The notes under the pieces are model-generated. The model was not told where the DNA came from, searched no databases, and worked only from the letters and a program-made list of their open reading frames with translations. Shown here piece by piece: positions 1 through 15,139 of a DNA stretch of 15,145 bases. The DNA comes from a virus (Duplodnaviria > Heunggongvirae > Uroviricota > Caudoviricetes), in the IMG/VR virus record IMGVR_UViG_2617270941_000006, one strand, 5' to 3'. The position numbers and the translations under genes are program-made. The stretch's first letter is position 1. Each line of letters opens with the position of its first letter.

Positions 1-1362
1 ATGTTTAAACCGGAACTCCTTTCCCCGGCGGGAACGCTGAAAAATATGCGTTACGCTTTCGCTTATGGCGCAGATGCTGTTTATGCGGGCCAGCCGCGTT
101 ATTCCCTGCGTGTGCGCAACAACGAATTCAACCACGAAAATCTTCAGCTCGGCATCAATGAAGCCCACGCGCTGGGGAAAAAGTTTTATGTCGTGGTCAA
201 CATTGCACCGCACAACGCCAAGCTGAAAACCTTTATCCGTGACCTGAAACCGGTGGTGGAAATGGGGCCGGATGCGCTGATTATGTCCGATCCAGGGCTG
301 ATTATGCTGGTGCGTGAGCACTTCCCTGAAATGCCGATCCACCTTTCGGTGCAGGCTAACGCCGTGAACTGGGCGACGGTGAAATTCTGGCAGCAAATGG
401 GCCTGACCCGCGTGATCCTCTCTCGCGAGCTGTCGCTGGAAGAGATTGAAGAGATCCGCAATCAGGTGCCGGATATGGAGATCGAGATCTTCGTTCACGG
501 CGCGCTGTGCATGGCCTACTCCGGTCGCTGCCTGCTCTCTGGCTATATCAACAAGCGCGACCCGAACCAGGGCACCTGCACCAACGCCTGCCGCTGGGAG
601 TACAACGTCCAGGAAGGGAAAGAAGATGATGTTGGCAACATCGTACACAAGTACGAGCCGATTCCGGTGCAAAATGTTGAGCCGACGCTGGGTATCGGCG
701 CACCAACCGACAAAGTGTTTATGATCGAAGAGGCCCAGCGTCCGGGCGAGTATATGACCGCGTTTGAAGATGAGCACGGCACTTACATCATGAACTCGAA
801 AGATCTGCGCGCCATCGCCCATGTAGAACGCCTGACCAAAATGGGCGTGCATTCGCTGAAAATCGAAGGTCGTACCAAATCTTTCTACTATTGTGCACGC
901 ACCGCACAGGTTTACCGCAAAGCTATCGATGACGCCGCTGCGGGAAAACCGTTCGATACCAGCCTGCTGGAAACTCTGGAAGGTCTGGCGCATCGTGGCT
1001 ATACCGAAGGTTTCCTGCGTCGTCATACTCACGACGATTATCAGAACTACGAATACGGTTATTCAGTTTCTGACCGCCAGCAGTTTGTTGGTGAGTTTAC
1101 CGGTGAGCGCAAGGGGGACCTCGCGGCGGTAGCGGTGAAAAATAAATTCTCCGTTGGCGACAGCCTTGAGCTGATGACGCCGCAAGGCAACATTAATTTT
1201 ACCCTTGAGCACATGGAAAACGCCAAAGGCGAAGCTATGCCGATAGCACCAGGCGATGGTTATACTGTGTGGCTCCCGGTCCCGCAGGATCTTGAGCTCA
1301 ATTACGCGCTGCTGATGCGTAATTTCTCCGGGGAAACCACGCGTAATCCCCACGGTAAGTGA
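1..1362 (+). CDS. yegQ: Peptidase U32-family protein YegQ (also called TrhP, tRNA U34 hydroxylation), complete 453 aa
   Basis: ORF track 1..1362, ATG at window position 1 and TGA at 1360-1362. The protein begins MFKPELLSPAGTLKNMRYAFAYGADAVYAGQPRYSLRVRNNEF, which I recognise as E. coli YegQ at its known 453-aa length. The cyaR sRNA gene follows downstream, as at the native E. coli locus. Confidence 0.9.
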   Translation: MFKPELLSPAGTLKNMRYAFAYGADAVYAGQPRYSLRVRNNEFNHENLQLGINEAHALGKKFYVVVNIAPHNAKLKTFIRDLKPVVEMGPDALIMSDPGLIMLVREHFPEMPIHLSVQANAVNWATVKFWQQMGLTRVILSRELSLEEIEEIRNQVPDMEIEIFVHGALCMAYSGRCLLSGYINKRDPNQGTCTNACRWEYNVQEGKEDDVGNIVHKYEPIPVQNVEPTLGIGAPTDKVFMIEEAQRPGEYMTAFEDEHGTYIMNSKDLRAIAHVERLTKMGVHSLKIEGRTKSFYYCARTAQVYRKAIDDAAAGKPFDTSLLETLEGLAHRGYTEGFLRRHTHDDYQNYEYGYSVSDRQQFVGEFTGERKGDLAAVAVKNKFSVGDSLELMTPQGNINFTLEHMENAKGEAMPIAPGDGYTVWLPVPQDLELNYALLMRNFSGETTRNPHGK

Positions 1363-1396: not shown

Positions 1397-1446
1397 TTAG
1401 AAACCGATCACATACAGCTGCATTTATTAAGGTTATCATCCGTTTC
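1397..1446 (+). promoter_or_regulatory. Putative cyaR promoter: imperfect CRP half-site pair (TCACA at about 1408-1412, centred near -42) and a -10-like TATCAT at about 1434-1439
   Basis: Sequence ttagaaaccgatcacat upstream of the cyaR 5' end; the TCACA half-site is good and the upstream half is degenerate. CyaR is known to be cAMP-CRP activated with a class II type site. Positions are read by eye. Confidence 0.4.
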
Positions 1447-1533
1447 GCTGAAAAACATAACCCATAAAATGCTAGCTGTACCAGGAACCACCTCCTTAGC
1501 CTGTGTAATCTCCCTTACACGGGCTTATTTTTT
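1447..1533 (+). ncRNA. cyaR: CyaR (RyeE) Hfq-dependent small RNA
   Basis: The stretch gctgaaaaacataacccataaaatgctagctgtaccaggaaccacctccttagcctgtgtaatctcccttacacgggcttatttttt matches my recollection of E. coli CyaR. It ends in a stem-loop (cctgtgtaa / ttacacggg) followed by a U-run, and sits between yegQ and P2-derived genes as in E. coli K-12. Confidence 0.8.
1507..1533. other. P2-type attachment-site core (prophage/host junction), coinciding with the 3' terminator of cyaR
   Basis: aatctcccttacacgggcttatttttt is the reverse complement of the 27-nt P2 att core as I recall it (AAAAAATAAGCCCGTGTAAGGGAGATT). It lies about 100 nt from the ogr stop, the distance expected between ogr and attP in P2. 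The core sequence is from memory and not verified. Confidence 0.55.
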
Positions 1534-1635: not shown

Positions 1636-2043
1636 TTACATCCACATAATTTGCTGCCCTGACGGCAACGGGTGCGGCCTTACGGCGTGGACTTCTCCCG
1701 GCTTCACGATGTATCTCTGTACCGACTCATAGGTGATGAACGTGGCGCTGCAATTCACGTTCTGACACTGGTGATAACGCTCTTTTGTCGTGTCAGTGAT
1801 ATAGCGGCTTGTACGCGCATGTGCGGCATGCTGGCATACCGTGAGTGCACTGGTTTCGGGTTCATATTCAATCACCGCCCCGTCAGGGAAACGGATATGC
1901 AGGGCATCCTCCGACGCAGACGGCGCGGGGTTATCACCGGAATAAATCCCCGGCAGAACGAACGCCGTGTCGAGTTCACCGCCCACGGCCAGAATCAGCA
2001 CCTGCTCCCCCAGCCGGTCTTCAAAACGCTTAAACTCATTCAT
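1636..2043 (-). CDS. ogr: In-frame fusion ORF: N-terminal 69 aa of tail-completion protein S joined to Ogr residues 7-72 (late-gene activator lacking its first 6 residues including Cys4)
   Basis: ORF track 1636..2043 (135 aa). The C-terminal 66 aa (CQHAAHARTSRYITDTTKERYHQCQNVNCSATFITYESVQRYIVKPGEVHAVRPHPLPSGQQIMWM) match P2 Ogr from residue 7 on. The N-terminal MNEFKRFEDRL... starts 2 nt past the R stop, where gene S starts in P2. Junction at about 1836/1837. Confidence 0.7.
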   Translation of the reverse strand: MNEFKRFEDRLGEQVLILAVGGELDTAFVLPGIYSGDNPAPSASEDALHIRFPDGAVIEYEPETSALTVCQHAAHARTSRYITDTTKERYHQCQNVNCSATFITYESVQRYIVKPGEVHAVRPHPLPSGQQIMWM

Positions 2044-2503
2044 CCCACTTGCTCACCAGTTCGCCATTGATATAAAGCTCCATCGGGCGGGTGACCGGCT
2101 CCGGCGGCGGGGGTTCCGGGATATTCTTCACATGCAGCGCGCCGTCCACCTCACTGACCAGCGTGCGCTCGGTCAGCATCAGGCTGATGCTGATATCAAA
2201 GCTGCTGTCATTGTTGATGTCTGCATAAAACGTGAAGCCCTTTTTCTGGCCTGCGTCGGTGGTCATGATGTCGGGCTGATTCTCCCGCAGCCACGCCAGC
2301 ACCGGCACGATGAGCAGGTCAAAATCACCGGTAAAGTCGGTCACAATGACATTGAGCGTGTAACGCTTTTCGAATGACAGCGACGTCGCCAGTGTGGAGG
2401 CAATACTCCCGTTATCCACGAATATCCGCAGCATATCGGGGTTAGTTTTCAGTACCGTGACGGCATCAGTCAGCGCCCTGCGCAGGCTGTCGGGTTTGAG
2501 CAT
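2036..2503 (-). CDS. R: P2 gpR-like tail completion protein R (155 aa)
   Basis: ORF track 2036..2503. The protein MLKPDSLRRALTDAVTVLKTNPDMLRIFVDNGS... matches my recollection of P2 gpR, with the same length and position between lysB and S. Confidence 0.85.
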   Translation of the reverse strand: MLKPDSLRRALTDAVTVLKTNPDMLRIFVDNGSIASTLATSLSFEKRYTLNVIVTDFTGDFDLLIVPVLAWLRENQPDIMTTDAGQKKGFTFYADINNDSSFDISISLMLTERTLVSEVDGALHVKNIPEPPPPEPVTRPMELYINGELVSKWDE

Positions 2504-2756
2504 CGTTTTCGTCCTGACAGTGTTTAATCATTTTTACCTGGCTGGCACAGCGCGCCAGCGCGTTCTCAAGCTGCCGGATATCGGCACTTAAATCGCCGTT
2601 CGTCTGCGGGTCACTGCCCGGCATCGGGCAAAGGCTCACTTTCGGGCAGGCGTTGTGGACAATCACTGGCGTCGGTGCAGGCGGGGCGCTGGTGCAACCG
2701 GCGCACAGCATCAGGCAGGTCAGCGCCGTACCAGCGGCGAAAATCTTCGTTTTCAT
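2466..2756 (-). CDS. lysC: LysC-like o-spanin lipoprotein (Rz1 equivalent), embedded out of frame in lysB
   Basis: Internal Met at residue 40 of ORF 2466..2873 gives MKTKIFAAGTALTCLMLCAGCTS..., a signal peptide with lipobox (LCAGC) followed by a Pro-rich segment. It is nested in the +1 frame of the i-spanin gene, the typical Rz/Rz1 arrangement. 96 aa. Confidence 0.7.
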   Translation of the reverse strand: MKTKIFAAGTALTCLMLCAGCTSAPPAPTPVIVHNACPKVSLCPMPGSDPQTNGDLSADIRQLENALARCASQVKMIKHCQDENDAQTRQPAQGAD

Positions 2757-3036
2757 TGAGTAACCTCGTGATGGTTTTCTCGCGCTGTGCTTCACGCTTC
2801 GCGGCGTTCTCCAGTTCCTGACGCAGTGCCACCTGCGCCAGCTCGTTTTTGTCTGCCCTGGTGAGTGCAACATGAAGCTGGTTTTTCAGCATGGTGATGG
2901 TCGTCTGCTGCCCGCTGGCGACGTTGCTCGCCCTGTCCAGTGAGGTGCGCAGGCTGGCGTTTTCATGCTTCGCCAGAAACAGACCGGCCACCGCCAGTGA
3001 TAACAACACAACCAGCACAATCATCAGCTTTGACAT
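2611..3036 (-). CDS. lysB: LysB-like i-spanin (Rz equivalent), 141 aa
   Basis: ORF track 2611..3036. N-terminal transmembrane segment (MSKLMIVLVVLLSLAVAGLFLA) followed by a charged coiled-coil-like region. Length and position match P2 LysB. Confidence 0.85.
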   Translation of the reverse strand: MSKLMIVLVVLLSLAVAGLFLAKHENASLRTSLDRASNVASGQQTTITMLKNQLHVALTRADKNELAQVALRQELENAAKREAQREKTITRLLNENEDFRRWYGADLPDAVRRLHQRPACTDASDCPQRLPESEPLPDAGQ

Positions 3037-3449
3037 GGTTCCCGCACCTCAAAACGCTGACGGCAGGCCGTACGTATCAGCCGGAAGAACACCGATACCA
3101 CGAGATAAATCAGCGCGGTAAAAATCCACCCGGCAGCGACCAGCGAGATAAACGTCGCCACCATCACTACCAGAGCCACCGCCCGTCTGCGCCACGGCAC
3201 CGGCTGCAAAAACAGCGACGTGACAATCTTCACGGCCAGCGATTCCGGCGGCAGCTCCCGCCCGTAGCGTTCCAGTACATACTCTGTGGCATACACGCCG
3301 ACACCGCCGGCAACCACACAGATAACCGTCGCCAGAATCGCCCAGGCGGCGACAAAATTGACGGCCACGCTCTGCGGGTAAATCAGGGACAGTGCCAGCA
3401 TCAGCGCCAGCGACACGTTCAGCATCAGTGAAAGGGATAATTTCTTCAT
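3024..3449 (-). CDS. lysA: LysA-like membrane protein (lysis timing / holin-associated), 141 aa
   Basis: Starts at the internal ATG at residue 35 of ORF 3024..3551 (MKKLSLSLMLNVSLALMLALSLIYPQ...). The protein is highly hydrophobic with multiple transmembrane segments, and this start gives the P2 LysA length of 141 aa. The 3551 TTG start is treated as an artefactual extension. Confidence 0.75.
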   Translation of the reverse strand: MKKLSLSLMLNVSLALMLALSLIYPQSVAVNFVAAWAILATVICVVAGGVGVYATEYVLERYGRELPPESLAVKIVTSLFLQPVPWRRRAVALVVMVATFISLVAAGWIFTALIYLVVSVFFRLIRTACRQRFEVREPCQS

Positions 3450-3465
3450 GGTGTTTACTCCGTTT

Positions 3466-3561
3466 TGCGGCGAACACGGTCTCAACCACGCCCTCAGTGC
3501 GCCCGTAATACCGGACACAGATAGCGTCGAGCGTGTCGCCCTGTAGCGCAAAGGTCTTCAT
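3466..3561 (-). pseudogene. X: Truncated gpX (tail protein X) stub: first about 32 codons only, reading through out of frame into lysA
   Basis: ORF 3049..3630 contains MKTFALQGDTLDAICVRYYGRTEGVVETVFAA, matching the N-terminus of P2 gpX, starting at an ATG that overlaps the L stop (tcat at about 3558-3561). After about 32 residues the frame continues into lysA sequence in the wrong frame. The genes expected between X and lysA (Y holin, K endolysin) are absent. Confidence 0.6.
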
Positions 3562-4070
3562 CAGATTTGACTCACGATGCAGCGCGGCTTGTCCTGGATG
3601 CGCGCCACTGCCCAGCGCATATCCCGCCACAGCTCATCAATGGTGCTGTCAATGCTGTCGGCCTTCTTGTCGCCTTTCGCACTGGCATCCACGCCGCGAT
3701 AACGCTCATAAAGCGATGCGGTCGCCATCGCACACACGGCGCGCTCGTAGTAAAAAACTTTGATGCTTTCACCGTCGATGTCGTCCGCCGGGACGTCCGC
3801 CAGACGCGTAAAACCGGCAGCAATTTTCTGTTTGCGGTACTCGTACAGCTCCGCATTCGTCTCCGCCATGCCTGACTTGATGGCCTCACGCAGACGGGCG
3901 GGGGCGACGGTCTGCTCAAGGCGCATACGTTCCCGGACGCGCTTCGGGTCGATATCGGGAAAAAAGAACGTGTTTTTAATCACCGGCTCGTCGCCTGCCG
4001 GTTGCGGGATGACCACCGTACCCTCACCGGACACGGGAGCCTCCTTTCGCGGAATAATCAGCGTCATCAT
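3561..4070 (-). CDS. L: P2 gpL-like head completion/stabilisation protein (169 aa)
   Basis: Starts at Met 21 of ORF 3561..4130 (MMTLIIPRKEAPVSGEGTVVIPQPAGDEPVIKNTFFFPDIDPKRV...), which matches P2 gpL. There is a GAGG Shine-Dalgarno about 5 nt upstream and the length is 169 aa. Confidence 0.85.
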   Translation of the reverse strand: MMTLIIPRKEAPVSGEGTVVIPQPAGDEPVIKNTFFFPDIDPKRVRERMRLEQTVAPARLREAIKSGMAETNAELYEYRKQKIAAGFTRLADVPADDIDGESIKVFYYERAVCAMATASLYERYRGVDASAKGDKKADSIDSTIDELWRDMRWAVARIQDKPRCIVSQI

Positions 4071-4169
4071 GACTACCTCTGAAAAGTCGGGCGGTGGACG
4101 CCGGTACAGCGTCAGGTGATTCACCCTCACTGACCGGCGTGCCGCCCTGGCGCGGGGCGCATTCGGTTG

Positions 4170-4913
4170 TTAACTGGCTTTCTTTTTCGGGCGTCCACGT
4201 TTTGCCGGTGTCACGCTCCGGCTCTTACGCGGGGTACGGGTGGCCGCTTTGGGCTGCGGCTCCGGCTTCGGTTTCAGCTCCCGCTCCAGTCGTTCAATCT
4301 CTTTTTTGACACCTGCCTGACAGTCGAGCTGTGTCGCACGTTGCAGGTGAGCCAGCGCACCGGCGGCATCACCACCATCACGCAGAAACAGACCTGTGAT
4401 TTTGTGCAGCTTTGCGCGCACTTCATCAGGCATGTCAGCCGTGGCGGTCAGTTCAAGGGTCTCCGTCAGCAGGCGGGTATCCACAGACTCACCGGCAGCG
4501 TGAGCACGCATGGCCGCGAGCGCCACCTCCTCGGTGAACATGTACGGCGGGGTGCGGCGGTGTTTACCCGGCATGGTCAGACCGTACTTCAGGGCATAAC
4601 GGGCAATCTCCAGCGCACCGGCAATATCGCCGGTATCCAGACGCCACAGCATGACCGTCATCAGAATGTCATCCTGTGCACCTTTGCCCTGCTCCAGCAC
4701 GCCGTTCACCCACGGCAACCAGAACGGCAGCAGTTCGCGTTTTTTCGCGGCCTTCAGCTCTTTTGAATAAATCGCTTTCAGTGTGCGCTGGTCTGCGGCG
4801 AGCTTAACCAGCATCTGCTCATAGACAGTTGCATGTCGCAGCGGGGCGGCTTCCCGCTGCGCGGTCATCGCTGCCGAGACCCGCATCATGTGGCGCTGTG
4901 CGGGACTCGTCAT
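4170..4913 (-). CDS. M: P2 gpM-like terminase small (endonuclease) subunit, 247 aa
   Basis: ORF track 4170..4913. The sequence MTSPAQRHMMRVSAAMTAQREAAPLRHATVYEQMLVKLAADQRTLKAIYS... matches recalled P2 gpM, with a basic Lys/Arg/Pro-rich C-terminal tail. Length 247 aa as in P2. Confidence 0.9.
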   Translation of the reverse strand: MTSPAQRHMMRVSAAMTAQREAAPLRHATVYEQMLVKLAADQRTLKAIYSKELKAAKKRELLPFWLPWVNGVLEQGKGAQDDILMTVMLWRLDTGDIAGALEIARYALKYGLTMPGKHRRTPPYMFTEEVALAAMRAHAAGESVDTRLLTETLELTATADMPDEVRAKLHKITGLFLRDGGDAAGALAHLQRATQLDCQAGVKKEIERLERELKPKPEPQPKAATRTPRKSRSVTPAKRGRPKKKAS

Positions 4914-4916
4914 CGG

Positions 4917-5990
4917 TTACGCTCCCGGCTCTGCGGTCGCTTTAGCCAGTGTGGAGAAATCACCGACCTTAATTTTTTCCACCAGACAACCGGCGGCGTA
5001 GTCTTCCACCACGTAATCAATGTTCATTGACTCGTAGTTCTCCACGCGGTCGAGTTTCGGGTTTTCCTCAATCACGCGGCGATGGCTGTCATCCATGTAG
5101 TAGATGGACAGGTTTTCCAGCTTCGTGATGAGCATCGCATCCGCCGGGAAGTACGGGACGCGTACCGCTGGCAGGTTACCGATGCGTTTCTGGCTGATGA
5201 TGACGTCAGCGGCCAGCATTTCGCTGTTGTCCTGCTCCTTGTTAACGATGGGGAAATACTTGTCCGCCAGTAACTGACGTCCCACTATCACCACAAGGTC
5301 AGGGTCTTCCTGATACCACGGTTCGATCAGGTTGTTGGTCGCATCCATCACCAGTGCATCAAGGCTGGCATAATCACCGCCCTTACCCACACGGATGACC
5401 TCAGAGGTCGTGTGACCTTCCTCGTCAGTGACCTTGCTCATCACGCGCGCCGGTGCTTCATTGCGGTATTTCTGCAGCCAGCCGACCGCCACATCCTGCA
5501 ACATCGGATTACTGTTGCGGTCAGAGGTTTCGGCACGCTTCACGCCGTTAAAACCGGCCATGATGAAATCAAGGGACTGGCGTTTGATAATGGCGTTACG
5601 GATACGGAGCTGGAAATCCTGATAACGCGCCCACAGGTCAAGCGTTTTGTAGCGGATATAAAAATCGAAGTTAACCTGGTCGCATTCGTACTTGTTTGAC
5701 GCCAGCTTCGAGAAGTCCTTCGGCTGACGCTCGGTGCCACCGGCGGTGTCGGTGGTGCTGGCGATGGAGCCGGTGACACCGATACCAATTTTTTCCCCTT
5801 TCATTTCGCTGACCGGCACAATGTTGATGCGGGTCAGAAAGTCAGAGGACTCCTGCATGGTGTTCATCAGGGTCTGGGTGACCGACGGTTCAACGGTGAA
5901 TTTTTTCGACACATCACCGGCGTCGATGCCGTTCAGTTCGGCAACACGGGACAGGTAGGCATTAAATTTAAAGCGGGTTTCCTGGCGCAT
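4917..5990 (-). CDS. N: P2 gpN-like major capsid protein, 357 aa
   Basis: ORF track 4917..5990. MRQETRFKFNAYLSRVAELNGIDAGDVSKKFTVEPSVTQTLMNTMQESSDFLTRINIV... matches recalled P2 gpN. Length 357 aa as in P2, positioned between O and M. Confidence 0.9.
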   Translation of the reverse strand: MRQETRFKFNAYLSRVAELNGIDAGDVSKKFTVEPSVTQTLMNTMQESSDFLTRINIVPVSEMKGEKIGIGVTGSIASTTDTAGGTERQPKDFSKLASNKYECDQVNFDFYIRYKTLDLWARYQDFQLRIRNAIIKRQSLDFIMAGFNGVKRAETSDRNSNPMLQDVAVGWLQKYRNEAPARVMSKVTDEEGHTTSEVIRVGKGGDYASLDALVMDATNNLIEPWYQEDPDLVVIVGRQLLADKYFPIVNKEQDNSEMLAADVIISQKRIGNLPAVRVPYFPADAMLITKLENLSIYYMDDSHRRVIEENPKLDRVENYESMNIDYVVEDYAAGCLVEKIKVGDFSTLAKATAEPGA

Positions 5991-6048
5991 AGTTTTTCCT
6001 GAAATTAAGGGTTAATCGTGAAGGTTTTCCCGGACTGGCTGACGCCGG

Positions 6049-6903: not shown

Positions 6904-7076
6904 TGTCAGGAGTCCTGAATAGTGATTAGAGGAGTCACATGTCGGCATCAGTTTCCCGACGATGCGCATCCTCCGCCATCAGTCCCGGATGGCTTATCAC
7001 TGACACAACAGCACCTTAGCGAATCGCGGGGCGCGACTCAGTAGCCTTGCCGTGTATTCATCACGGCGAGGTATTC
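6904..7076. promoter_or_regulatory. Divergent late-promoter region between O (leftward) and P (rightward), expected site of Ogr-dependent promoters
   Basis: A 173-nt intergenic region between divergent late operons, as in P2 where PO and PP are activated by Ogr. GAGG Shine-Dalgarno at about 7065-7068 before the P start. I could not find a perfect TGT-N12-ACA element, so exact promoter positions are not assigned. Confidence 0.4.
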
Positions 7077-8849
7077 ATGACCATCACCACAGACACCACT
7101 CTTTTACACGACCCGCGTCGTCAGGCGGCGCTGCTGTACTGGCAGGGATTTTCCGTGCCGCAGATTGCCGCCATGTTGCAGATGAAACGCCCGACGGTGC
7201 AGAGCTGGAAACAGCGCGACGGCTGGGACAGCGTTGCCCCCATCAGCCGTGTCGAAATGAGTCTGGAAGCGAGGCTGACCCAGCTCATCATCAAACCGCA
7301 GAAAACCGGCGGTGACTTCAAGGAAATTGACCTGCTCGGACGCCAGATTGAACGACTGGCACGGGTCAACCGTTACAGTCAGACCGGCAACGAGGCAGAC
7401 CTTAATCCGAACGTCGCTAACCGCAACAAGGGCGGGCGTCGCAAACCGAAAAAGAATTTTTTCAGTGACGAGGCCATCGAAAAGCTGGAGCAGATTTTCT
7501 TTGAGCAGTCTTTCGAATATCAGTTGCACTGGTATCGCGCCGGGCTTGAGCACCGCATCCGCGATATCCTGAAATCCCGCCAGATTGGCGCGACGTTTTA
7601 TTTTTCCCGCGAGGCGCTGCTGCGCGCCCTGAAAACCGGTCATAACCAGATTTTTCTGTCGGCCAGTAAAACGCAGGCGTATGTGTTCCGCGAATACATC
7701 ATCGCCTTTGCCCGGTTGGTTGACGTTGACCTGACCGGTGACCCAATTGTCCTGGGCAATAACGGCGCAAAACTGATTTTTCTCGGCACCAACTCCAACA
7801 CCGCGCAGAGCCATAACGGCGACCTGTACGTCGACGAGATTTTCTGGATCCCGAATTTTCAGGTGCTCCGTAAGGTGGCATCAGGTATGGCCTCACAGAG
7901 CCACCTGCGCTCGACCTATTTCTCCACCCCGTCCACGCTGGCGCACGACGCCTACCCGTTCTGGTCGGGTGAACTGTTCAACCGGGGACGCGCCAGCGCC
8001 GCCGAACGCGTGGAAATCGACGTCAGTCATAACGCCCTTGCCGGAGGTCTTCTCTGTGCGGACGGCCAGTGGCGGCAGATTGTCACCATTGAGGACGCCC
8101 TGAAAGGCGGCTGCACGCTGTTCGACATTGAGCAGCTCAAACGCGAAAACAGCGCCGACGATTTTAAAAACCTGTTCATGTGTGAATTTGTTGACGACAA
8201 GGCATCGGTGTTCCCGTTCGAGGAGCTGCAACGCTGCATGGTCGACACGCTGGAAGAATGGGAAGACTATGCGCCGTTTGCCGCCAATCCGTTCGGCTCC
8301 CGCCCGGTATGGATTGGTTACGACCCGTCACACCGTGGCGACAGCGCCGGATGCGTGGTGCTGGCACCGCCGGTGGTGGCCGGTGGAAAATTCAGAATAC
8401 TTGAGCGTCACCAGTGGAAAGGCATGGACTTTGCCACTCAGGCTGAATCCATCCGCAAACTCACCGAAAAATACAACGTCGAATACATCGGTATTGATGC
8501 CACCGGCCTCGGTGTCGGCGTGTTCCAGCTCGTGCGCTCGTTCTATCCCGCCGCGCGCGATATCCGCTACACACCGGAAATGAAAACTGCAATGGTGCTC
8601 AAGGCAAAAGACGTTATCCGCCGTGGCTGTCTGGAATATGACGTCAGCGCCACCGACATCACCAGCTCGTTCATGGCTATCCGCAAGACCATGACCAGCA
8701 GCGGACGCAGCGCCACGTATGAGGCCAGCCGCAGCGAGGAAGCCAGCCACGCCGACCTCGCCTGGGCGACCATGCATGCCCTGTTAAATGAGCCACTCAC
8801 CGCCGGTATCAGCACCCCGCTGACATCCACCATTCTGGAGTTTTACTGA
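7077..8849 (+). CDS. P: P2 gpP-like terminase large (ATPase) subunit, 590 aa
   Basis: Starts at Met 11 of ORF 7047..8849 (MTITTDTTLLHDPRRQAALLYWQGFSVPQIAAMLQMKRPTVQSWKQRDGWDS...), which matches recalled P2 gpP. The TTG at 7047 is treated as an extension. The stop overlaps the Q start (tgatga). Confidence 0.9.
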   Translation: MTITTDTTLLHDPRRQAALLYWQGFSVPQIAAMLQMKRPTVQSWKQRDGWDSVAPISRVEMSLEARLTQLIIKPQKTGGDFKEIDLLGRQIERLARVNRYSQTGNEADLNPNVANRNKGGRRKPKKNFFSDEAIEKLEQIFFEQSFEYQLHWYRAGLEHRIRDILKSRQIGATFYFSREALLRALKTGHNQIFLSASKTQAYVFREYIIAFARLVDVDLTGDPIVLGNNGAKLIFLGTNSNTAQSHNGDLYVDEIFWIPNFQVLRKVASGMASQSHLRSTYFSTPSTLAHDAYPFWSGELFNRGRASAAERVEIDVSHNALAGGLLCADGQWRQIVTIEDALKGGCTLFDIEQLKRENSADDFKNLFMCEFVDDKASVFPFEELQRCMVDTLEEWEDYAPFAANPFGSRPVWIGYDPSHRGDSAGCVVLAPPVVAGGKFRILERHQWKGMDFATQAESIRKLTEKYNVEYIGIDATGLGVGVFQLVRSFYPAARDIRYTPEMKTAMVLKAKDVIRRGCLEYDVSATDITSSFMAIRKTMTSSGRSATYEASRSEEASHADLAWATMHALLNEPLTAGISTPLTSTILEFY

Positions 8850-9467: not shown

Positions 9468-9472
9468 ACATC

Positions 9473-9636: not shown

Positions 9637-9655
9637 GTGCTTTCCCCGCCTCGCC
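9637..9655. other. P2-type cos site (19-nt cohesive end sequence)
   Basis: gtgctttccccgcctcgcc is the reverse complement of the P2 cohesive end GGCGAGGCGGGGAAAGCAC as I recall it. It lies about 170 nt beyond the end of Q, as expected for the P2 genome end. Sequence from memory, not verified. Confidence 0.6.
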
Positions 9656-9772: not shown

Positions 9773-10966
9773 TTAAATTCTGCATCCATCGGTTTGAAAA
9801 TGTGATCCGTTTTTCGAATTCAAACTCAACTCTGTTTGACTCTTTTGAACATTAATAGTTTTACCAGTAAGGACATCCAAAACCCCTGCAGCAACAGCCT
9901 GCGCCAATTTACAAGGCACAGCATTCCCTATCTGACGCCAAATTGACGAATTTTTCCCCACAAAGACATAATTACTCGGGAATGTTTGAATCAAAAGAGC
10001 CTCATCTATCGTTAGTCGACGTAAACGACTAGGTACATCGTGCATATCTTTTGGCTCACCACCATTCATTAGATGATTATGATAAGTCTCAACATAACTT
10101 GTTGAGCCATCATAAAGGTGTTCTTCATCAATAATTGGTGTCCTATTCCCTCCCATAGAAGCAGCTATAGTTGAAGCATACCCATTCGGGTTAATTGGTC
10201 TTCCCTGCCCGTTAAACATCATTCCCGCGTAAGGTGACTTCCGTAATACTGGCTTAGCAGCATTTGTAATCCTTGCATTACAGACTCTTGAATTGTTTGG
10301 ATTACCCGCTCGCCCTAAAGGCCGAATAATCTCACCAACTGTGGGCGAAAGATATTGGTATTTTTTTATCGCCGCCTCAACTCGTTTCACATCATTTTCG
10401 GAACGAAACCCTATAAAAAACATACGTTCCCTATTCTGAGGAACGCCAAAATCTTTAGAATTCAGCACCAGCAAGGCTGAACGATAGCCTGACTTTTCAG
10501 CCATCTTAAACAGTTCACACCTAACTGGTTCAAATTTGGACAACTGTGCTAAAGCCTTAACATTCTCCATAACAAAGCATTCTGGTTGAATTATATCCAC
10601 CGCCCGCATGAATGACATAACCAGCTTACTACGTGGATCATGAGCGTCCATTTTCCCTGCCACAGAAAATCCTTGGCATGGAGGCCCACCAAAAACACAA
10701 CCTATATTTTTCAGCCCAGACAATTCACTTAGCATCTCATCAATATCACCACAAAAAACAGGTGATTCATGATTAAGCTTAAATGTATCACATGCATCCT
10801 TATCTATATCATTGGCCCAAACTGTTCGGAACCCGGCATTAGAGAAACCGACATCCATCCCTCCTGCCCCAGTAAATAAGCTCACCGCTGAAATTTTGTT
10901 CACTTCTTTAGCACCAATTATTCGATTTTGGAATAAAACCAATGATAGGTAAGGATCGACACACAA
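9773..10966 (-). CDS. DNA (cytosine-5)-methyltransferase, Type II R-M modification subunit (397 aa with the TTG start)
   Basis: ORF track 9773..10966. Conserved m5C-MTase motifs in canonical order: LFTGAGGMDVGF (motif I, AdoMet binding), GGPPCQGFS (motif IV, catalytic Cys), ENV (motif VI), QNRERMFFIG (motif VIII), a variable target-recognition region, and RQIGNAVP (motif X). The TTG start has an AAGGTGA Shine-Dalgarno 4 nt upstream; GTG starts 21 or 27 codons in are alternatives. The region is AT-rich compared with the phage backbone. Confidence 0.85.
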   Translation of the reverse strand: MCVDPYLSLVLFQNRIIGAKEVNKISAVSLFTGAGGMDVGFSNAGFRTVWANDIDKDACDTFKLNHESPVFCGDIDEMLSELSGLKNIGCVFGGPPCQGFSVAGKMDAHDPRSKLVMSFMRAVDIIQPECFVMENVKALAQLSKFEPVRCELFKMAEKSGYRSALLVLNSKDFGVPQNRERMFFIGFRSENDVKRVEAAIKKYQYLSPTVGEIIRPLGRAGNPNNSRVCNARITNAAKPVLRKSPYAGMMFNGQGRPINPNGYASTIAASMGGNRTPIIDEEHLYDGSTSYVETYHNHLMNGGEPKDMHDVPSRLRRLTIDEALLIQTFPSNYVFVGKNSSIWRQIGNAVPCKLAQAVAAGVLDVLTGKTINVQKSQTELSLNSKNGSHFQTDGCRI

Positions 10967-10986
10967 TCAATCACCTTCTAAACCAC

Positions 10987-11256
10987 ATGGCAAAACGACA
11001 ACCAACTATACATGATCATAGATACAGGTGCCTAGTCCAGCTTCTCACCAAACTACGCAAAGAAGCTTCTCTTTCGCAGTCAGAATTGGCCATTTTTCTA
11101 GGATTATCACAATCAGATATATCTAAAATCGAAAGCTTTGAAAGGCGATTAGATGCTTTAGAACTATTTGAATTATTAGAGGTGGTTGCAAGCCGATTAG
11201 GTCTACCAATGGATATCTTACTAAAGGACACCTATGAAAGTATTAGTAAATCATGA
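10987..11256 (+). CDS. XRE-family helix-turn-helix regulator, putative R-M controller (C) protein, 89 aa (104 aa if it starts at the ATG at 10942)
   Basis: Internal Met 16 of ORF 10942..11256. HTH segment LRKEASLSQSELAIFLGLSQSDISKIESFERRLDALELFELLEVVASRLGLPMD follows the pattern of R-M controller proteins. It is divergent from the methyltransferase and its 3' end overlaps the start of the downstream ORF by 23 nt (C-R operon architecture). Start codon choice is uncertain. Confidence 0.65.
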   Translation: MAKRQPTIHDHRYRCLVQLLTKLRKEASLSQSELAIFLGLSQSDISKIESFERRLDALELFELLEVVASRLGLPMDILLKDTYESISKS

Positions 11257-12289
11257 GCAAGCCTATAATGTAATTATAAATGCAATCAACGATGCAAAAA
11301 AATTAACTGATTACAAAACAAATAATCAATGGGTCTCCATTCAAAATGTAATTTTAGGCACCCACCTTACATACAGATATATACTTATTACTGGTTTACT
11401 TGCAAAAGCAACAGACCCTAGAGTAAACCCTCTTGCTTTACAAGCTAATGCCCCCGTAGACGGAGCCTATGATGCAAGAAGTTTATGTCATTCGGTAATA
11501 GTAGGCAAAGTAGAAGGCCCATTTTTAGAGGGTAAGTTAGGCGCATCAAATGAGCCATTTCTAAATAAACCTGCTCGTTACATGCTCCACTCCTCTGATA
11601 ACCCTGTGCGCAGAGGAAATGATAAGGTTTTACAACAACTTTCAATTGATATATTACATGCAGCAACAACCCAAACCTTAGCTTATGAAATGCTTGTTAT
11701 TGCATTATATTTTACCCTACAGCGAACCAATAGAGTTATAACGCCGAACTCAATTAATTTTGATTTCCATAAGATTATTTATAATATTATATCTCATCCT
11801 TGTGATGGAGAAACATGCGCGATTGCTGCCGCAATTTCGTTACATTTATTAGGTGAACAAAGAGGATGGATAATAAAAGCACATCCCGTCAATCAGGCCG
11901 GTAGCTCCTCAAAAGAGATACTGGACATAGATGTATATCATGACGATATAGTTTTCCTTTCTATAGAAGTGAAAGACAAACCATTTAATTATCAAGATGT
12001 TAATCACGCCGTTTCAAAAGCATCTGCATCCGGGATTTCAAAAGTTATCTTCCTTAAAGGGCCAAGAGCAACAAACTTAGATATTGATGAGTCTCTTGCG
12101 ATTGAGAACGCTGCGACAAAAGGTGTTTCACTAAGCTTTAGTGACGTCATGACATTCACAACAACATGTTATGCGTTATCGCCACTATTAAGTAATGACA
12201 GAATAATAGATTTCATAAATAACACTTTAAAAGACATCAGAGCTAAAGATAGCACTATAGAATACATACAATCCATATTTAAAAATTAA
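11234..12289 (+). CDS. Putative Type II restriction endonuclease (351 aa), family unassigned
   Basis: ORF track 11234..12289. ATG preceded by AAAGGA Shine-Dalgarno at 11223-11228, translationally coupled to the HTH gene. Candidate PD-(D/E)xK-like motif around residues 231-247 (LDIDVYHDDIVFLSIEVK, about nt 11924-11974). Function is inferred from genomic context with the m5C-MTase and controller; the ORF itself is solid, the product call is tentative. Confidence 0.55.
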   Translation: MKVLVNHEQAYNVIINAINDAKKLTDYKTNNQWVSIQNVILGTHLTYRYILITGLLAKATDPRVNPLALQANAPVDGAYDARSLCHSVIVGKVEGPFLEGKLGASNEPFLNKPARYMLHSSDNPVRRGNDKVLQQLSIDILHAATTQTLAYEMLVIALYFTLQRTNRVITPNSINFDFHKIIYNIISHPCDGETCAIAAAISLHLLGEQRGWIIKAHPVNQAGSSSKEILDIDVYHDDIVFLSIEVKDKPFNYQDVNHAVSKASASGISKVIFLKGPRATNLDIDESLAIENAATKGVSLSFSDVMTFTTTCYALSPLLSNDRIIDFINNTLKDIRAKDSTIEYIQSIFKN

Positions 12290-12382: not shown

Positions 12383-14653
12383 TCATAATTCATACGCTCT
12401 CCAATCACATATAACAGGATAACTGAAGCTTCTCCCGTCGTAATTTACAGTTGCCCCACGCGCCAGCGCCTCAAGCTCCCATCGCTGCGGCCTGATACCG
12501 TTCTGAGCAAGGTCAACGCGGATACGGGTGATTTGCAATCGTTCAGACCTGGTCAGTCTGGCCGATGGTGCTATTTCATGCGGTTTTAACGGGCTTCCGT
12601 TTCTTTGCTGACGGTTTGGTGTTATCAGGTCGTGTTTTAATGCGCCCCTGAGCGCCCTCACGACCTCCGGGTCATTCCATTCGATAACACCGTCATCAAC
12701 CAGATTAAGCACTGCTGCGGCGTGTTCAGAAGGTGTGGGAGCCGGTAACGAAGTATCACCACTGGTGAGCTTTCCACAGTTATTGACAGGACTCCGAGGC
12801 GCGGCGATGCCGCTTTTTAAAGTCAAAGGCTCAACGACCGGAACTTTCGGCACAATGCGCCAGTCCGTCGTTCTGGTGATATGAATATGACGCGCGCCGA
12901 GATGCGGCGCGTAAATGCCGACCACTCTCTCGACTTCTTCCTCGTACTCGTTAACGTCATCCGACGGGCTACGGGCGACCCTGACAGTCTGACAATCGCG
13001 CGGGACATTTGCCCCGCCCTGCGCGCTGATATACAACGCAAAATCACCACTGTCTGCGGCGGCGCGTGCAGCCTCGACGCGTTCGTCAAACTCATCAGCA
13101 ATGCTGACGCCGCGAGGCAATTTGCGTAGCTCACGGTAAGCCCCCATTGTCGGCAGGCCAACCGTTTTAAATTGCGGAATGCGCCACGTTGACGCCCATG
13201 CGGTAACAGCCGCGGCAGTATCTTTCAGCGGCCTGCCAGTATCGTTATCGAGCTGACCATCCAGTGCATAGCCGTCGATGTTTTTTGAAATGTATTTCGC
13301 GATATATCCCGCAGCACCGCCCCGGTTAAGGTGTTTTGCCTGAAAACGGTTTCGCGCAGCTCCTCTTTCGTCTCCATCCTCTTTGAGCGCGTAGCGACGC
13401 ATGATTTCGATAATCTGGTTACGCTGGCGTGGATTACAAAAAAGCATCATATGCCAGTGCGGCGTTCCGTCGTGGTGTGGCTCGACGACACGCAAACCGT
13501 AGACCTGTAAATCATTATCCTTGAATGCCGTGCGCATCAGGCTCCAGATATGGCAGAGATAACGCTGCGCATCCTTTGGATTAAATGCCTCATCATTCCA
13601 GCCGTGATTTAGCTGGACGGTTTTACTTTCGCCTTTTCCGACCTGACGTGTCGGGTGATACTTTGACGGCGCGGTCAGCGTGATAAACATCCCCACATCA
13701 CCCTCTGCGGCGGCATAACGCTCAATTCCGGCGATGGTGTTCATCAGCTCCATCCGGCGAATTTCAGGATTAGAAATACTGCCCATCACCTTACTGATAA
13801 GGTCGATGCGCTCGCCGGTTTCCCTGTTTTCAAGGTCACACGATTTAAGAAATTCCAGATTTGCCTGGCGGCGTGCACGCACATCACGAATGGCATGTTT
13901 ACTGGCATAAGGAGAACGGTCTTTATTGACCTCCCCGACAGCAATCAGTAACGCCTCATGCCAGCGCATACGCTGGCCTTTAAGCTGATGAGTCCACCAC
14001 TCATCGTTAAACAGACGGGCAATGGCAGAATATGCCTGCCTCGTAGTTATCTGTCCTTTACGGTATTTTTTCCAGTAGAGCGGGGAAATATTGAAAGCAC
14101 GTGCAGCGCCAGCAACATGACCATACAGGTGAGTCTGCGCCTCATCCGTAAACAGCGATTCTTTTTCGCCATGTGCATCAACCCATGCATCGCAGAGTTC
14201 CTCATACATCATGAAAAGCTGCGATGAGATACGGGCGGCAAACTTTTTCAGCTCCTTGTCATTCATCCCCGGCAGGCGCGCATAGTGGTCACGCTCTGCC
14301 AGAAACAGTAACGACTCGTCGGTGTTCATTTCATGGCGCTGATTCACGCGCTCAATGCGCGGCCATAAACGACGCTGAAAAGTGGATGTGAGGAAATAAA
14401 ACCCGTGCACCGGGCTTTTATTGCGCCGGATGTAGTCATAGCGTGAAGTAAACAGCGAGCGCAAAAAGTAAGGCAGGCGGTTAATCGTGGATAAAACACC
14501 TTGCACCTGACGCATCTCGTCACGTGTAAGGGGTCTTTCGCGCCCGACAGCCTCGCGTGGCGCGTTCCATGCATAAGCACCGGTAAACGCCTTACCGGTG
14601 CCTGCGGCAAATGCTGACGGAGGGACAAAACGCCCGGAGGCTTTAACGGCCAT
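12383..14653 (-). CDS. A: P2 gpA-like rolling-circle replication initiator (HUH endonuclease), 756 aa
   Basis: Starts at Met 15 of ORF 12383..14695 (MAVKASGRFVPPSAFAAGTGK...), the P2 gpA N-terminus as I recall it. HUH metal-binding motif (GTPHWHMMLF) and active-site tyrosine motif (GYIAKYISKN). The upstream gene stops at 14643, consistent with this start. The extreme C-terminus is AT-rich and may be chimeric. Confidence 0.9.
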   Translation of the reverse strand: MAVKASGRFVPPSAFAAGTGKAFTGAYAWNAPREAVGRERPLTRDEMRQVQGVLSTINRLPYFLRSLFTSRYDYIRRNKSPVHGFYFLTSTFQRRLWPRIERVNQRHEMNTDESLLFLAERDHYARLPGMNDKELKKFAARISSQLFMMYEELCDAWVDAHGEKESLFTDEAQTHLYGHVAGAARAFNISPLYWKKYRKGQITTRQAYSAIARLFNDEWWTHQLKGQRMRWHEALLIAVGEVNKDRSPYASKHAIRDVRARRQANLEFLKSCDLENRETGERIDLISKVMGSISNPEIRRMELMNTIAGIERYAAAEGDVGMFITLTAPSKYHPTRQVGKGESKTVQLNHGWNDEAFNPKDAQRYLCHIWSLMRTAFKDNDLQVYGLRVVEPHHDGTPHWHMMLFCNPRQRNQIIEIMRRYALKEDGDERGAARNRFQAKHLNRGGAAGYIAKYISKNIDGYALDGQLDNDTGRPLKDTAAAVTAWASTWRIPQFKTVGLPTMGAYRELRKLPRGVSIADEFDERVEAARAAADSGDFALYISAQGGANVPRDCQTVRVARSPSDDVNEYEEEVERVVGIYAPHLGARHIHITRTTDWRIVPKVPVVEPLTLKSGIAAPRSPVNNCGKLTSGDTSLPAPTPSEHAAAVLNLVDDGVIEWNDPEVVRALRGALKHDLITPNRQQRNGSPLKPHEIAPSARLTRSERLQITRIRVDLAQNGIRPQRWELEALARGATVNYDGRSFSYPVICDWRAYEL

Positions 14654-14918
14654 ATGAGCCAAAAGCCTCTGAACAACGCTTGCTGAGTTGCTCAACCTGC
14701 GCGTTTAAATCAGCAAAAGACTTTGCGCTTCCGGTCAGAATATCGTGATGCATCAGGCCGGAAACGAGCTGGCTTAATTTCGGGTAATAACCAACCACCG
14801 CCAGCCATTCCTGACCGGCGTTTTTACCGCTTTCCGCTCTCTTTTTCTCGTGGAGAATAAACTGAAAGCTGTCACTGGTAACGACATAACGTTCGCCAAT
14901 TTCGATACGAATACTCAT
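14643..14918 (-). CDS. P2 early-operon small protein immediately upstream of A (orf83-position homologue), 91 aa, function unknown
   Basis: ORF track 14643..14918. The ATG overlaps the stop of the upstream zinc-finger ORF (tcat at 14915-14918). It sits where the P2 early operon has small ORFs between B and A. The name is by position only. Confidence 0.55.
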   Translation of the reverse strand: MSIRIEIGERYVVTSDSFQFILHEKKRAESGKNAGQEWLAVVGYYPKLSQLVSGLMHHDILTGSAKSFADLNAQVEQLSKRCSEAFGSYGR

Positions 14919-15139
14919 GCCATTCTCCGGTAATGTTTGTTTTTTGCTTCAAAGACTGACTGACAGGAAACACAACGCGTGGCTGACGGATAAGCCGCAC
15001 GACGGGCAGCAGGTATTGGCGCGTCACACTCTTCGCAAACCAGCGCAGAAGCACCGCAATGTTTTACCCTTGCCGCGTTAATCTGGCGCTCCAGTAATTC
15101 AGCCTGTTGTTCCTGAATAAAATCTACGTTGTCCGGCAT
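14915..15139 (-). CDS. TraR/DksA-family C4 zinc-finger protein (P2 early-operon small ORF, orf82-like), 74 aa
   Basis: ORF track 14915..15139 with ATG at 15137-15139. Four cysteines in two CxxC pairs (HCGASALVCEECDAPIPAARRAAYPSATRCVSCQ), typical of phage TraR/DksA-like zinc fingers. Confidence 0.65.
   Translation of the reverse strand: MPDNVDFIQEQQAELLERQINAARVKHCGASALVCEECDAPIPAARRAAYPSATRCVSCQSVFEAKNKHYRRMA

What the first reader, a model, noticed from the sequence alone, without database searches (positions are those of the whole stretch)
3440..3570. Precise loss of holin (Y) and endolysin (K) with truncation of X, while spanins and LysA are retained
P2 order is L, X, Y, K, lysA, lysB(lysC), R. 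Here the X start (overlapping the L stop at about 3558-3561) is followed after about 32 codons directly by the lysA upstream region, so roughly 0.8-0.9 kb carrying the holin and endolysin is missing. Without a holin or endolysin the element cannot lyse its host even if late genes were switched on. Keeping lysA, lysB and lysC intact while removing exactly the lethal pair is consistent with selection against killing, or simply with recent decay.
Basis: partly seen in the sequence, partly recalled or inferred. Interest (0 to 1): 0.55.

Follow-up and report, generated by a model that had tools for sequence, protein, structure and literature searches.

The report
Holin/endolysin deletion in decaying P2 prophage
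A P2-type prophage stuck in an E. coli chromosome has really lost its two cell-killing lysis genes through an 888-bp deletion, but this is one of at least four deletions in an already dead phage; the only unusual point is that the same deletion endpoint recurs in unrelated P2 remnants.

Summary
Against phage P2, window 3464/3465 joins P2 6604-6606 (X codon 32/33) to P2 7493-7495 (inside the K stop codon). This removes 888 bp: the rest of X, all of Y (holin) and all of K (endolysin). lysA, lysB and lysC are intact.

"Precise removal of the lethal pair under selection" is only partly supported. The element is a P2-like remnant at yegQ/cyaR in E. coli 2-222-05_S1 (three sister assemblies). None of 5,426 complete E. 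coli genomes carries it. It has three more deletions with 2-5 nt microhomology. Q is frameshifted. All tail genes from V to D are gone. ogr has lost its promoter and first five codons and sits in an S'-V'-'Ogr fusion. Every retained gene is intact, capsid genes included, so intact lysA/B/C says nothing special. Ordinary recent deletional decay fits best.

One result was unexpected. The right breakpoint (TTAA|ACGGAG, just 5' of the lysA ribosome-binding site) is reused in four other independent rearrangements: APEC O78, strain H2, a 70-genome clonal remnant, and a K inversion. A second window breakpoint, in V, is also reused. I found no cause for this recurrence.

The parts
1..1362 (+). Host gene yegQ/trhP, flanking the prophage
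   Evidence: 100% identical to yegQ/trhP in many complete E. coli genomes. Pfam Peptidase_U32.
1445..1530 (+). CyaR (RyeE) sRNA gene. Its 3' end lies in the P2 att core, which is window 1507-1533 = P2 24382-24356.
   Evidence: Rfam RF00112, 100.7 bits against a gathering score of 47. Searches give the attP core coordinates.
1636..2043 (-). In-frame triple fusion ORF S(1-11)-V(63-121)-Ogr(6-72), 135 aa. The V|ogr junction is at 1834-1838 (13.4 kb deleted). The S|V junction is at 2011-2012 (1.55 kb deleted). The fusion lacks the ogr promoter and Ogr residues 1-5.
   Evidence: Pfam Ogr_Delta plus a weak Phage_base_V hit.
2036..2503 (-). R (tail completion), intact, 155 aa
2466..2756 (-). lysC (Rz1-like o-spanin), intact, 96 aa
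   Evidence: (Pfam LysC)
2611..3036 (-). lysB (Rz-like i-spanin), intact, 141 aa
3024..3449 (-). lysA (P2 antiholin-type membrane protein), intact, 141 aa, with its GGAG ribosome-binding site at 3458-3461
   Evidence: One search gives Pfam LysA for the identical gene in L007.
3464..3465 (.). Deletion junction: P2 6604-6606 joined to P2 7493-7495 with an AA overlap. 888 bp are missing, comprising X codons 33-67, Y and K.
   Evidence: One search shows the size difference in related phages.
3049..3561 (-). Truncated X: 32 native codons (3561-3466), then an out-of-frame read through lysA to a stop at 3051-3049
3561..4070 (-). L (head completion), intact, 169 aa
4170..6903 (-). M, N and O (terminase small subunit, major capsid, scaffold), all intact
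7077..8849 (+). P (terminase large subunit), intact, 590 aa
8849..9467 (+). Q (portal), broken by a 416-bp frameshifting deletion. The junction is at 8948-8951 with GTAC microhomology.
9637..9655 (.). Joined cos site of the prophage
9773..12289 (.). Cargo in the gpA-gpQ defence hotspot, replacing P2 old/tin: C5 cytosine methyltransferase (9773-10966, minus strand), HTH controller (10942-11256, plus strand) and SacI-family restriction endonuclease (11234-12289, plus strand). GC is 38% against 53-57% in the flanks.
   Evidence: describes the hotspot (Rousset et al. preprint).
12383..15139 (-). Early genes A (756 aa, intact), orf83 and orf82. The window then ends at a contig end.
   Evidence: Searches give the contig lengths (105,316 and 105,330).

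Best explanation
The feature is a real 888-bp deletion in a defective P2-like (Peduovirus) prophage integrated at the yegQ/cyaR attachment site of E. coli 2-222-05_S1.

It arose by illegitimate, microhomology-mediated joining with an AA overlap. The left partner is in X codon 32/33 and the right partner is the A-run that begins in the K stop codon, 2 nt upstream of the lysA ribosome-binding site. It removes the C-terminal half of tail protein X, the holin Y and the endolysin K.

It is one of at least four such deletions, and these together have reduced the phage to a non-lytic, non-particle-forming remnant:
- Q internal deletion, 416 bp.
- S to V deletion, 1,549 bp.
- V to ogr deletion, 13,383 bp.

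The remnant still carries intact capsid, terminase, lysA/lysB/lysC, R and replication genes and a SacI-type restriction-modification cargo.

Shown: the junction, the gene losses, the intactness of what remains, the rarity, and the strain-private distribution.

Inferred: the deletions are recent, because there are no point-mutational pseudogenes in about 10 kb of retained phage coding DNA. Neutral or weakly favoured deletional decay, rather than specific selection on the lysis pair, accounts for the loss. With Ogr truncated and promoterless, the remaining late genes are silent unless a co-resident P2/P4-type activator is present.

The position of the right end is not random. The same 3-nt site has been used in at least four other independent rearrangements of P2-like prophages. 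It therefore behaves as a recombination hotspot, and I could not establish why.
For: Junction and size.

Loss of Y and K, and intact neighbours.

Other deletions, all with 2-5 nt microhomology (GTAC, AA, TG, about 5 nt).

Fusion ORF lacking the Ogr N-terminus.

Source and reality of the junction in three assemblies.

Absence from 5,426 complete genomes, and canonical order in the others.

Another yegQ-site remnant with quite different deletions and Y/K retained (CP66-6). This shows that decay at this locus is haphazard.

[quoted passage not shown] The gpA-gpQ locus is a defence hotspot (10.1101/2021.01.21.427644). P2 lysis module roles are given in PMC3091744.

Recurrent right end:
- APEC O78: P2 6481|7493.
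- Strain H2: TTTGACGTAA|ACGGAG.
- CPEC80-type: CCGGTAA|ACGGAG, in 70 genomes.
- K inversion in IMG/VR contig L005.
Against: The order of the four deletions is unknown, so the Y/K deletion could have come first and been selected.

All five rearrangements found at this site disable Y and/or K while leaving lysA intact. A purely neutral model does not predict that.

The exact reuse of the endpoint is unexplained by anything I tested.

Only the window was available, not the whole genome. A second P2-like prophage may exist, since the contig breaks inside the P2 early region. It could supply Ogr, holin and endolysin in trans.
Confidence: 0.8

Rival explanations
1. Adaptive disarming. The lysogen was selected for loss of the holin and endolysin, while the antiholin LysA and the spanins were kept because they are harmless or useful, for example by blunting the holin of a superinfecting P2-like phage.
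For: All independent rearrangements ending at this site remove or invert K and/or Y and leave lysA with its ribosome-binding site. In APEC O78 the L'-X-Y-K deletion is one of only two lesions in an otherwise complete prophage, so lysis-gene loss can come early. The CPEC80-type remnant keeps lysA, lysB, lysC, R and S unflagged as pseudogenes in 70 genomes.
Against: Such loss is rare: 1 of 1,569 P2-bearing complete genomes in the L+lysA survey. About 95% of the records matched keep K contiguous with lysA. The window element also keeps intact capsid and terminase genes of no conceivable host use, so intactness is not a sign of selection. The deletion also kills X. Selection to keep lysA would allow any endpoint within about 200 nt of K and does not explain nucleotide-exact reuse. 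In the H2 and CPEC80 types the late promoters are deleted, so lysA has no known promoter. From established knowledge, P2 is not SOS-inducible, so the cost of carrying Y/K is small. The 70 genomes are clonal (100% identity in the sampled rows) and count as one event.
Confidence: 0.2
2. Mechanistic hotspot. A site-specific nick, break or replication arrest at TTAA|ACGGAG (P2 7493-7495), and at CACGGTA|AGCGG in V (P2 10668-10670), gives one fixed end that is joined to variable partners through 2-4 nt of homology. This would resemble deletions anchored at rolling-circle origin nicks or at arrested replication forks. It complements the best explanation rather than excluding it.
For: There are four deletions with different left ends (P2 about 994, about 1046, 6481, 6606) plus one inversion, all sharing a right end within the same 3 nt. 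They sit in prophages at four different chromosomal loci (yegQ, pflA/pflB, cpxP/fieF) and differ by 2-3% in sequence. In the unbiased 400-nt survey around the site, at least 72 of 79 partial matches break at this point: three independent events against one seen elsewhere. A second site in V is shared by the window and the CPEC80 type with different right partners. A third cluster lies in lysC, at P2 8377 and 8381.
Against: I found no structural or sequence cause. DNA folding around the site is no better than shuffles. There is no Chi site. No long direct or inverted repeat ends there. Only a 6-nt match (CGGAGT) links it to the P2 ori nick region, and the breakpoint is 2-4 nt away from where an A-protein nick would fall. 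By my own comparison from memory, it bears no resemblance to Din-family invertase sites beyond CTTAAAC. All events keep the same side of site A, which also fits selection. Up to six partial matches were not examined. The count of independent events is small.
Confidence: 0.5
3. This lineage naturally has a different gene order or a different lysis cassette, so nothing was lost.
For: None found.
Against: The flanks are 96-98% identical to P2. Every related phage record listed has X, Y and K between L and lysA. X is cut in mid-codon and continues out of frame. No other lysis gene is in the window.
Confidence: 0.01
4. Assembly or sequencing artefact at the junction.
For: The source assemblies are drafts, and the window ends at a contig end.
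Against: The junction lies inside a 105-kb contig. Three separately deposited assemblies carry the same element. The junction shows clean microhomology, like the three other deletions.
Confidence: 0.02

Closest known systems
Bacteriophage P2 (Peduovirus P2, NC_001895) prophage
   Same: 95-98% nucleotide identity in collinear blocks. Same att core, cos, divergent P/O late promoter region, gene order and early genes.
   Different: It lacks X (C-terminal half), Y, K, S, orf30, V (most), W to D and fun(Z). Q is frameshifted and ogr is truncated and fused. old/tin are replaced by a SacI-type restriction-modification system.
P2-like prophage of E. coli APEC O78 (NC_020163, between pflA and pflB)
   Same: An independent deletion removes X, Y and K, with the identical right end (P2 7493-7495). 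lysA, lysB and lysC are intact.
   Different: The left end is in L (P2 6481; 1,013 bp deleted). It sits at a different att site with a different integrase and cargo. It is otherwise nearly complete, with only one further 506-bp V-W-J deletion.
CPEC80-type P2 remnant at cpxP/fieF (70 complete genomes) and the H2 remnant at yegR/yegQ
   Same: The same right breakpoint sits in front of an intact lysA. The CPEC80 type also shares the window's breakpoint in V (P2 10668-10670).
   Different: The left ends are in the portal gene Q, with about 6.45-6.5 kb deleted including both late promoters and all capsid genes. The shared block is only 96.7% identical to the window.
Cryptic or defective prophages decaying by deletion (e.g. 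'grounded' prophages, PMC6379469; defective P2 with conserved defence genes, PMC13586616)
   Same: Loss of mobility, virion and lysis functions by deletion, with retention of a cargo defence system.
   Different: Here all damage is deletional, with no point-mutational pseudogenes yet, and the element is private to one strain.
Deletions anchored at a fixed DNA lesion (rolling-circle origin nick; arrested replication fork). Recalled from the literature of Michel, Ehrlich and Bierne, not retrieved here.
   Same: One fixed endpoint, variable partner, and 2-4 nt homology at the joint.
   Different: No origin, Ter-like site or other arrest signal could be identified at the P2 site. The resemblance is by pattern only.

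Membership tests
P2-like (Peduovirus) prophage | Collinear nucleotide and protein homology with P2 late and early genes | tested here: met
   95-98% nt identity and 95-100% aa identity for P, O, N, M, L, LysA/B/C, R, A, orf82, orf83.
P2-like (Peduovirus) prophage | P2 att core at the junction with host DNA, and a joined cos site | tested here: met
   window 1507-1533 = attP core, next to yegQ/cyaR. cos is at 9637-9655.
P2-like (Peduovirus) prophage | Integrase, repressor C and cox | not testable with these tools
   They lie beyond the window end, and the source contig ends there.
Functional (inducible, particle-forming) P2 prophage | Complete set of essential virion genes (Q, X, S, V, W, J, I, H, G, FI, FII, E, T, U, D) | tested here: not met
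   Q is frameshifted, X and S are truncated, only 59 aa of V remain, and W to D are absent.
Functional (inducible, particle-forming) P2 prophage | Late activator Ogr with its own promoter and full zinc-finger | tested here: not met
   P2 10674-24051 is deleted, including the ogr promoter (23973-24002) and codons 1-5. The first Cys of the CxxC pair is gone (Ogr sequence knowledge).
P2 lysis cassette (Y, K, lysA, lysB, lysC) | Holin Y | tested here: not met
   no tblastn hit in the window. The gene lies wholly inside the deleted P2 interval 6607-7492.
P2 lysis cassette (Y, K, lysA, lysB, lysC) | Endolysin K | tested here: not met
   no hit. Only the last 2 nt of the stop codon remain.
P2 lysis cassette (Y, K, lysA, lysB, lysC) | Antiholin-type LysA and spanins LysB/LysC | tested here: met
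   full-length ORFs at 95-97% identity to P2.
Domesticated phage-tail weapon (R-type tailocin) | Sheath, tube, baseplate and fibre genes together with a lysis cassette | tested here: not met
   no tail genes other than R, and no holin or endolysin.
Defence cargo of the P2 gpA-gpQ hotspot (type II restriction-modification) | Methyltransferase plus restriction endonuclease, with a controller, between A and cos | tested here: met
   Pfam DNA_methylase 1.4e-66, RE_SacI 1.9e-76, HTH_3. The location matches. Activity was not tested.

The most novel reading that the evidence does not exclude
The K-stop/lysA-RBS position (P2 7493-7495), and to a lesser degree a site in V (P2 10668-10670) and one in lysC (P2 8377-8381), are genuine polar hotspots of illegitimate recombination in P2-like prophages. 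They have been used repeatedly and independently in different hosts and chromosomal loci. On this reading, prophage decay in this family is channelled by a site-specific DNA lesion or arrest, or by strong selection to disable Y/K while keeping the antiholin gene lysA as a host-useful module, for example against superinfecting P2-like phages.
Probability: 0.35. Interest if true: 0.5.

Novelty: new member of a known kind. Interest (0 to 1): 0.3.

Why it matters
In itself this is one more defective prophage. It shows that the element cannot lyse its host or make particles, and that what is probably being kept is its restriction-modification cargo.

What could matter more widely is the reuse of identical deletion endpoints in unrelated P2 remnants. 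If confirmed on a large census, it would mean that prophage inactivation in a very common E. coli phage family is not random. It would point either to an unrecognised fragile or arrest site in the late operon, or to host selection for a particular 'disarmed' configuration that retains lysA.

Tried and rejected
- **Natural alternative gene order:** rejected.
- **Second lysis cassette in the window:** none.
- **Same junction in other genomes:** absent from 5,426 complete E. coli genomes and from GTDB species representatives. The degenerate non-canonical junction pattern VAAACGGAGTAAAYACCATGAAGAAA, which includes the window's junction, found nothing in the GTDB representatives or JGI metagenomes. 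In IMG/VR it found only the APEC-type deletion and the K inversion. A second pattern found one silent SNP and the CPEC80 type.
- **Intermediate forms of the window element:** none. The other yegQ-site remnants (CP66-6, H2) have unrelated deletions.
- **Recent common ancestry of the shared breakpoints:** rejected. The window is 96.7% identical to CPEC80 and 97.9% to APEC O78 over the shared block, and the partners differ on the other side.
- **Causes for the hotspot:**
  - DNA hairpin or cruciform: z-scores -0.2 to +1.0.
  - Chi or Chi-oriented protection: no Chi in P2 or the window.
  - Long direct or inverted repeats.
  - Pseudo-origin for the P2 A nickase: only CGGAGT is shared, and the junctions are incompatible with a nick after CGG at site A (plus the junction sequences).
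  - Din-family invertase quasi-site, terminase pseudo-cos and P2 Int secondary site: compared by eye, no convincing match.
  - New promoter created at the junction: none.
  - RNA element at the site: no Rfam hit there.
- **Accession search:** a literature search for the WGS accession returned unrelated papers.
Full report
**What is in the window.** blastn against P2 (NC_001895, fetched) resolves the whole 15,145-bp window.
- Positions 1-1506 are host DNA. They hold yegQ/trhP and the CyaR sRNA gene at 1445-1530, whose 3' end runs into the P2 att core.
- From 1507 onward the minus strand carries P2 DNA in five collinear blocks:

| Window | P2 | Content |
|---|---|---|
| 1507-1838 | 24382-24052 | att core and ogr without its first 16 nt |
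| 1834-2012 | 10673-10495 | a 179-bp piece of V |
| 2011-3465 | 8947-7493 | first 33 nt of S, then R, lysC, lysB, lysA |
| 3464-8951 | 6606-1119 | first 98 nt of X, then L, M, N, O, P and part of Q |
| 8948-9655 | 706-1 | rest of Q, up to cos |

- Positions 9684-12413 have no P2 match and only 38% GC. They encode a C5-methyltransferase, an HTH controller and a SacI-family endonuclease. This is the gpA-gpQ locus described as a defence hotspot of P2-like phages (10.1101/2021.01.21.427644).
- Positions 12414-15145 are P2 30273-27542 (A, orf83, orf82).

**The observation.** The junction reads ...GAGACCGTGTTCGCCGCAAA|ACGGAGTAAACACCATGAAG....
- The P2 left flank is ...GCCGCAAATCCGGG. The right flank is ...CCGGCTTAAACGGAG, where TAA is the K stop codon.
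- The window has four A's, so the joint lies within a 2-nt AA overlap. The left end is P2 6604-6606 and the right end is P2 7493-7495. Exactly 888 bp are missing.
- The 25 best-matching P2-like phage records listed span 2189-2207 bp where the window has 1301, mostly 2189. Tail protein X, holin and endolysin are annotated in the extra DNA. In all, 75 of 124 matching records cover at least 80% of the query.
- tblastn with P2 proteins finds X residues 1-33 only and nothing for Y or K anywhere in the window. LysA, LysB, LysC, R, L, M, N, O, P, A, orf82 and orf83 are full length at 95-100% identity with single terminal stops.
- The truncated X keeps 32 native codons and then runs out of frame across lysA to a stop at 3051-3049. 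Only residues 1-32 match Pfam Phage_tail_X.

**Source and distribution.**
- The S'-V'-'Ogr fusion protein is unique to this element. It is encoded on three contigs in the public collection. One is NCBI JNQM01000015.1 (GCA_000704285.1), which has L followed directly by lysA and carries the exact junction 40-mer.
- The protein is deposited three times from E. coli 2-222-05_S1_C1 and sister assemblies. The window ends where these contigs end.
- None of 5,426 complete E. coli genomes has the junction or the overall arrangement. The junction is also absent from GTDB species representatives. A degenerate pattern that includes it found nothing there or in JGI metagenomes.
- The element is therefore private to one strain.

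**Context that changes the interpretation.** The X-K deletion is one of four:

| Deletion | Size | Microhomology at joint |
|---|---|---|
| Q internal (frameshifting) | 416 bp | GTAC |
| X to K stop | 888 bp | AA |
| S to V | 1,549 bp | TG |
| V to ogr | 13,383 bp | about 5 nt |

- The last deletion removes every tail gene from V to D, the ogr promoter and the first five Ogr codons.
- The S, V and ogr fragments happen to be in one frame. They form a 135-aa ORF at 1636-2043 on the minus strand.
- From knowledge of the Ogr sequence, this fusion lacks the first cysteine of the zinc-finger.
- The element therefore cannot make portals or tails and cannot activate its own late operon.
- All surviving genes are intact, including capsid and terminase genes that can be of no use to the host. 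Intact lysA/lysB/lysC is therefore not evidence of selection. It indicates instead that all four deletions are recent.
- A different remnant at the same yegQ site (strain CP66-6) has lost H to D but kept X, Y and K. A recent survey found no core gene that is always inactivated in defective P2 elements, although defence genes stay conserved (PMC13586616).
- In a chimeric L+lysA survey, only 1 of 1,569 P2-bearing complete genomes has L and lysA brought together.
- I conclude that ordinary deletional decay of a grounded prophage is the best reading. Selection against the lethal pair is possible but not demonstrated.

**The unexpected part.** The single genome found, APEC O78, carries a different prophage.
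- It lies between pflA and pflB and has a different integrase and cargo. It is nearly complete, with only one further deletion.
- Its L'-X-Y-K deletion joins P2 6481 to P2 7493: ...CAGGACAA|ACGGAGTAAAC. That is the same right end as in the window.

I then queried P2 7295-7694 against the complete genomes.
- 79 of 1,560 matching records are partial.
- The sampled partial hits start at query position 198, which is P2 7492, and have a portal gene fragment next to lysA.
- They resolve into two further independent events:
  - Strain H2, at yegR/yegQ...TTTGACGTAA|ACGGAG, left end about P2 994.
  - A clonal remnant at cpxP/fieF in 70 genomes...CAGACCGGTAA|ACGGAG, left end about P2 1046.
- An IMG/VR contig has K inverted between CTTTAAG at the end of Y and CTTAAAC at the K stop.
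- In total there are four deletions with four different left ends, plus one inversion. They come from prophages at four chromosomal loci that differ by 2-3% in sequence. All share an endpoint within the same 3 nt, and all leave lysA with its ribosome-binding site.
- By my own rough estimate, if right ends fell uniformly in the last 200 nt of K, the chance of four falling in one 3-nt slot is about 1e-5 or less.

Two more sites recur.
- The window's breakpoint in V (CACGGTA|, P2 10668-10670, joined to ogr) is the same as that of the 70-genome remnant, where it is joined to H.
- Two other elements break 4 nt apart in lysC, at P2 8377 and 8381.

**Search for a cause.** I found none.
- There is no stable DNA hairpin.
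- There is no Chi site.
- No long repeat ends at the site.
- No promoter is created at the junction.
- No Rfam element lies there.
- Only a 6-nt match links the site to the P2 ori nick region, and it is in the wrong register.
- The pattern is one fixed end, a variable partner and 2-4 nt of homology. It resembles deletions anchored at origin nicks or arrested forks, which I recall from the literature but did not retrieve. The constant polarity is equally what selection to disable Y/K while sparing lysA would give.
- Up to six partial matches were not examined. The number of independent events is small, so I rate a true hotspot as likely but unproven.

**Comparison with known things.**
- The element is a defective member of the P2-like (Peduovirus) prophages. 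Homology, att core and cos are met. Virion completeness, Ogr, holin and endolysin were tested and not met.
- It is not a tailocin, because it has no tail genes.
- Its lysis module is reduced to the antiholin-type LysA and the spanins LysB/LysC (roles per PMC3091744). These cannot lyse a cell without a holin and an endolysin.
- The most plausible reason the remnant persists is its restriction-modification cargo. This is an inference.

**Verdict.** Novelty is low for the feature itself. The recurrent-endpoint observation is the one item worth a follow-up census.

Noticed in passing
window 3464-3465; L002 9111-9112; L128 12000-12005; L129 9245-9252; L005 about 1110 and about 1640: The right end of the deletion (P2 7493-7495, TTAA|ACGGAG, just 5' of the lysA ribosome-binding site) is reused in four other independent rearrangements of P2-like prophages: APEC O78, strain H2, a 70-genome clonal remnant at cpxP/fieF, and a K inversion in an IMG/VR contig. 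No cause was found.
   Followed up: partly
window 1834-1838; L129 12425-12426: The window's breakpoint in V (CACGGTA|AGCGG, P2 10668-10670) is identical to that of the cpxP/fieF remnant, but it is joined to a different partner (ogr here, H there). This is a second recurrent endpoint.
   Followed up: partly
L005 about 230 (minus-strand listing) and L128 about 12895: Two unrelated remnants break 4 nt apart in lysC (P2 8377 and 8381), next to GATTTAAGTGCCGATATC and just upstream of the annotated O-operon attenuator.
   Followed up: no
window 1636-2043 (-): Two separate deletions left S(1-11), V(63-121) and Ogr(6-72) in one reading frame. This makes a 135-aa chimeric ORF that starts at the S start codon and lacks the first zinc-finger cysteine of Ogr. 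Databases annotate it as 'phage baseplate assembly V family protein'.
   Followed up: partly
window 1445-1530 (+): The CyaR/RyeE sRNA gene (Rfam, 100.7 bits) ends inside the P2 att core (1507-1533), so the prophage end supplies the 3' end of the sRNA gene.
   Followed up: no
window 9684-12413: A low-GC (38%) SacI-type restriction-modification module (methyltransferase, HTH controller, endonuclease) replaces old/tin between cos and gene A. The same cargo occurs in intact P2-like prophages in several of the best-matching complete E. coli genomes. It is probably the part of the remnant that is still useful to the host.
   Followed up: partly
window 15145 (end): The window ends exactly where the 105,330-nt source contig ends, inside the P2 early region (orf82/orf81). 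An assembly break there suggests repeated DNA, possibly a second P2-like prophage in the genome that could supply Ogr, holin and endolysin in trans.
   Followed up: no
window 8948-8951: The portal gene Q carries a 416-bp frameshifting deletion between two GTAC tetranucleotides. It leaves a 43-aa N-terminal ORF and a 178-aa C-terminal ORF.
   Followed up: yes
L003 (APEC O78, 1706449-1738020): The P2-like prophage between pflA and pflB has only two lesions: a 1,013-bp L'-X-Y-K deletion and a 506-bp V-W-J deletion. It is an example in which lysis-gene loss is among the first steps of decay.
   Followed up: partly
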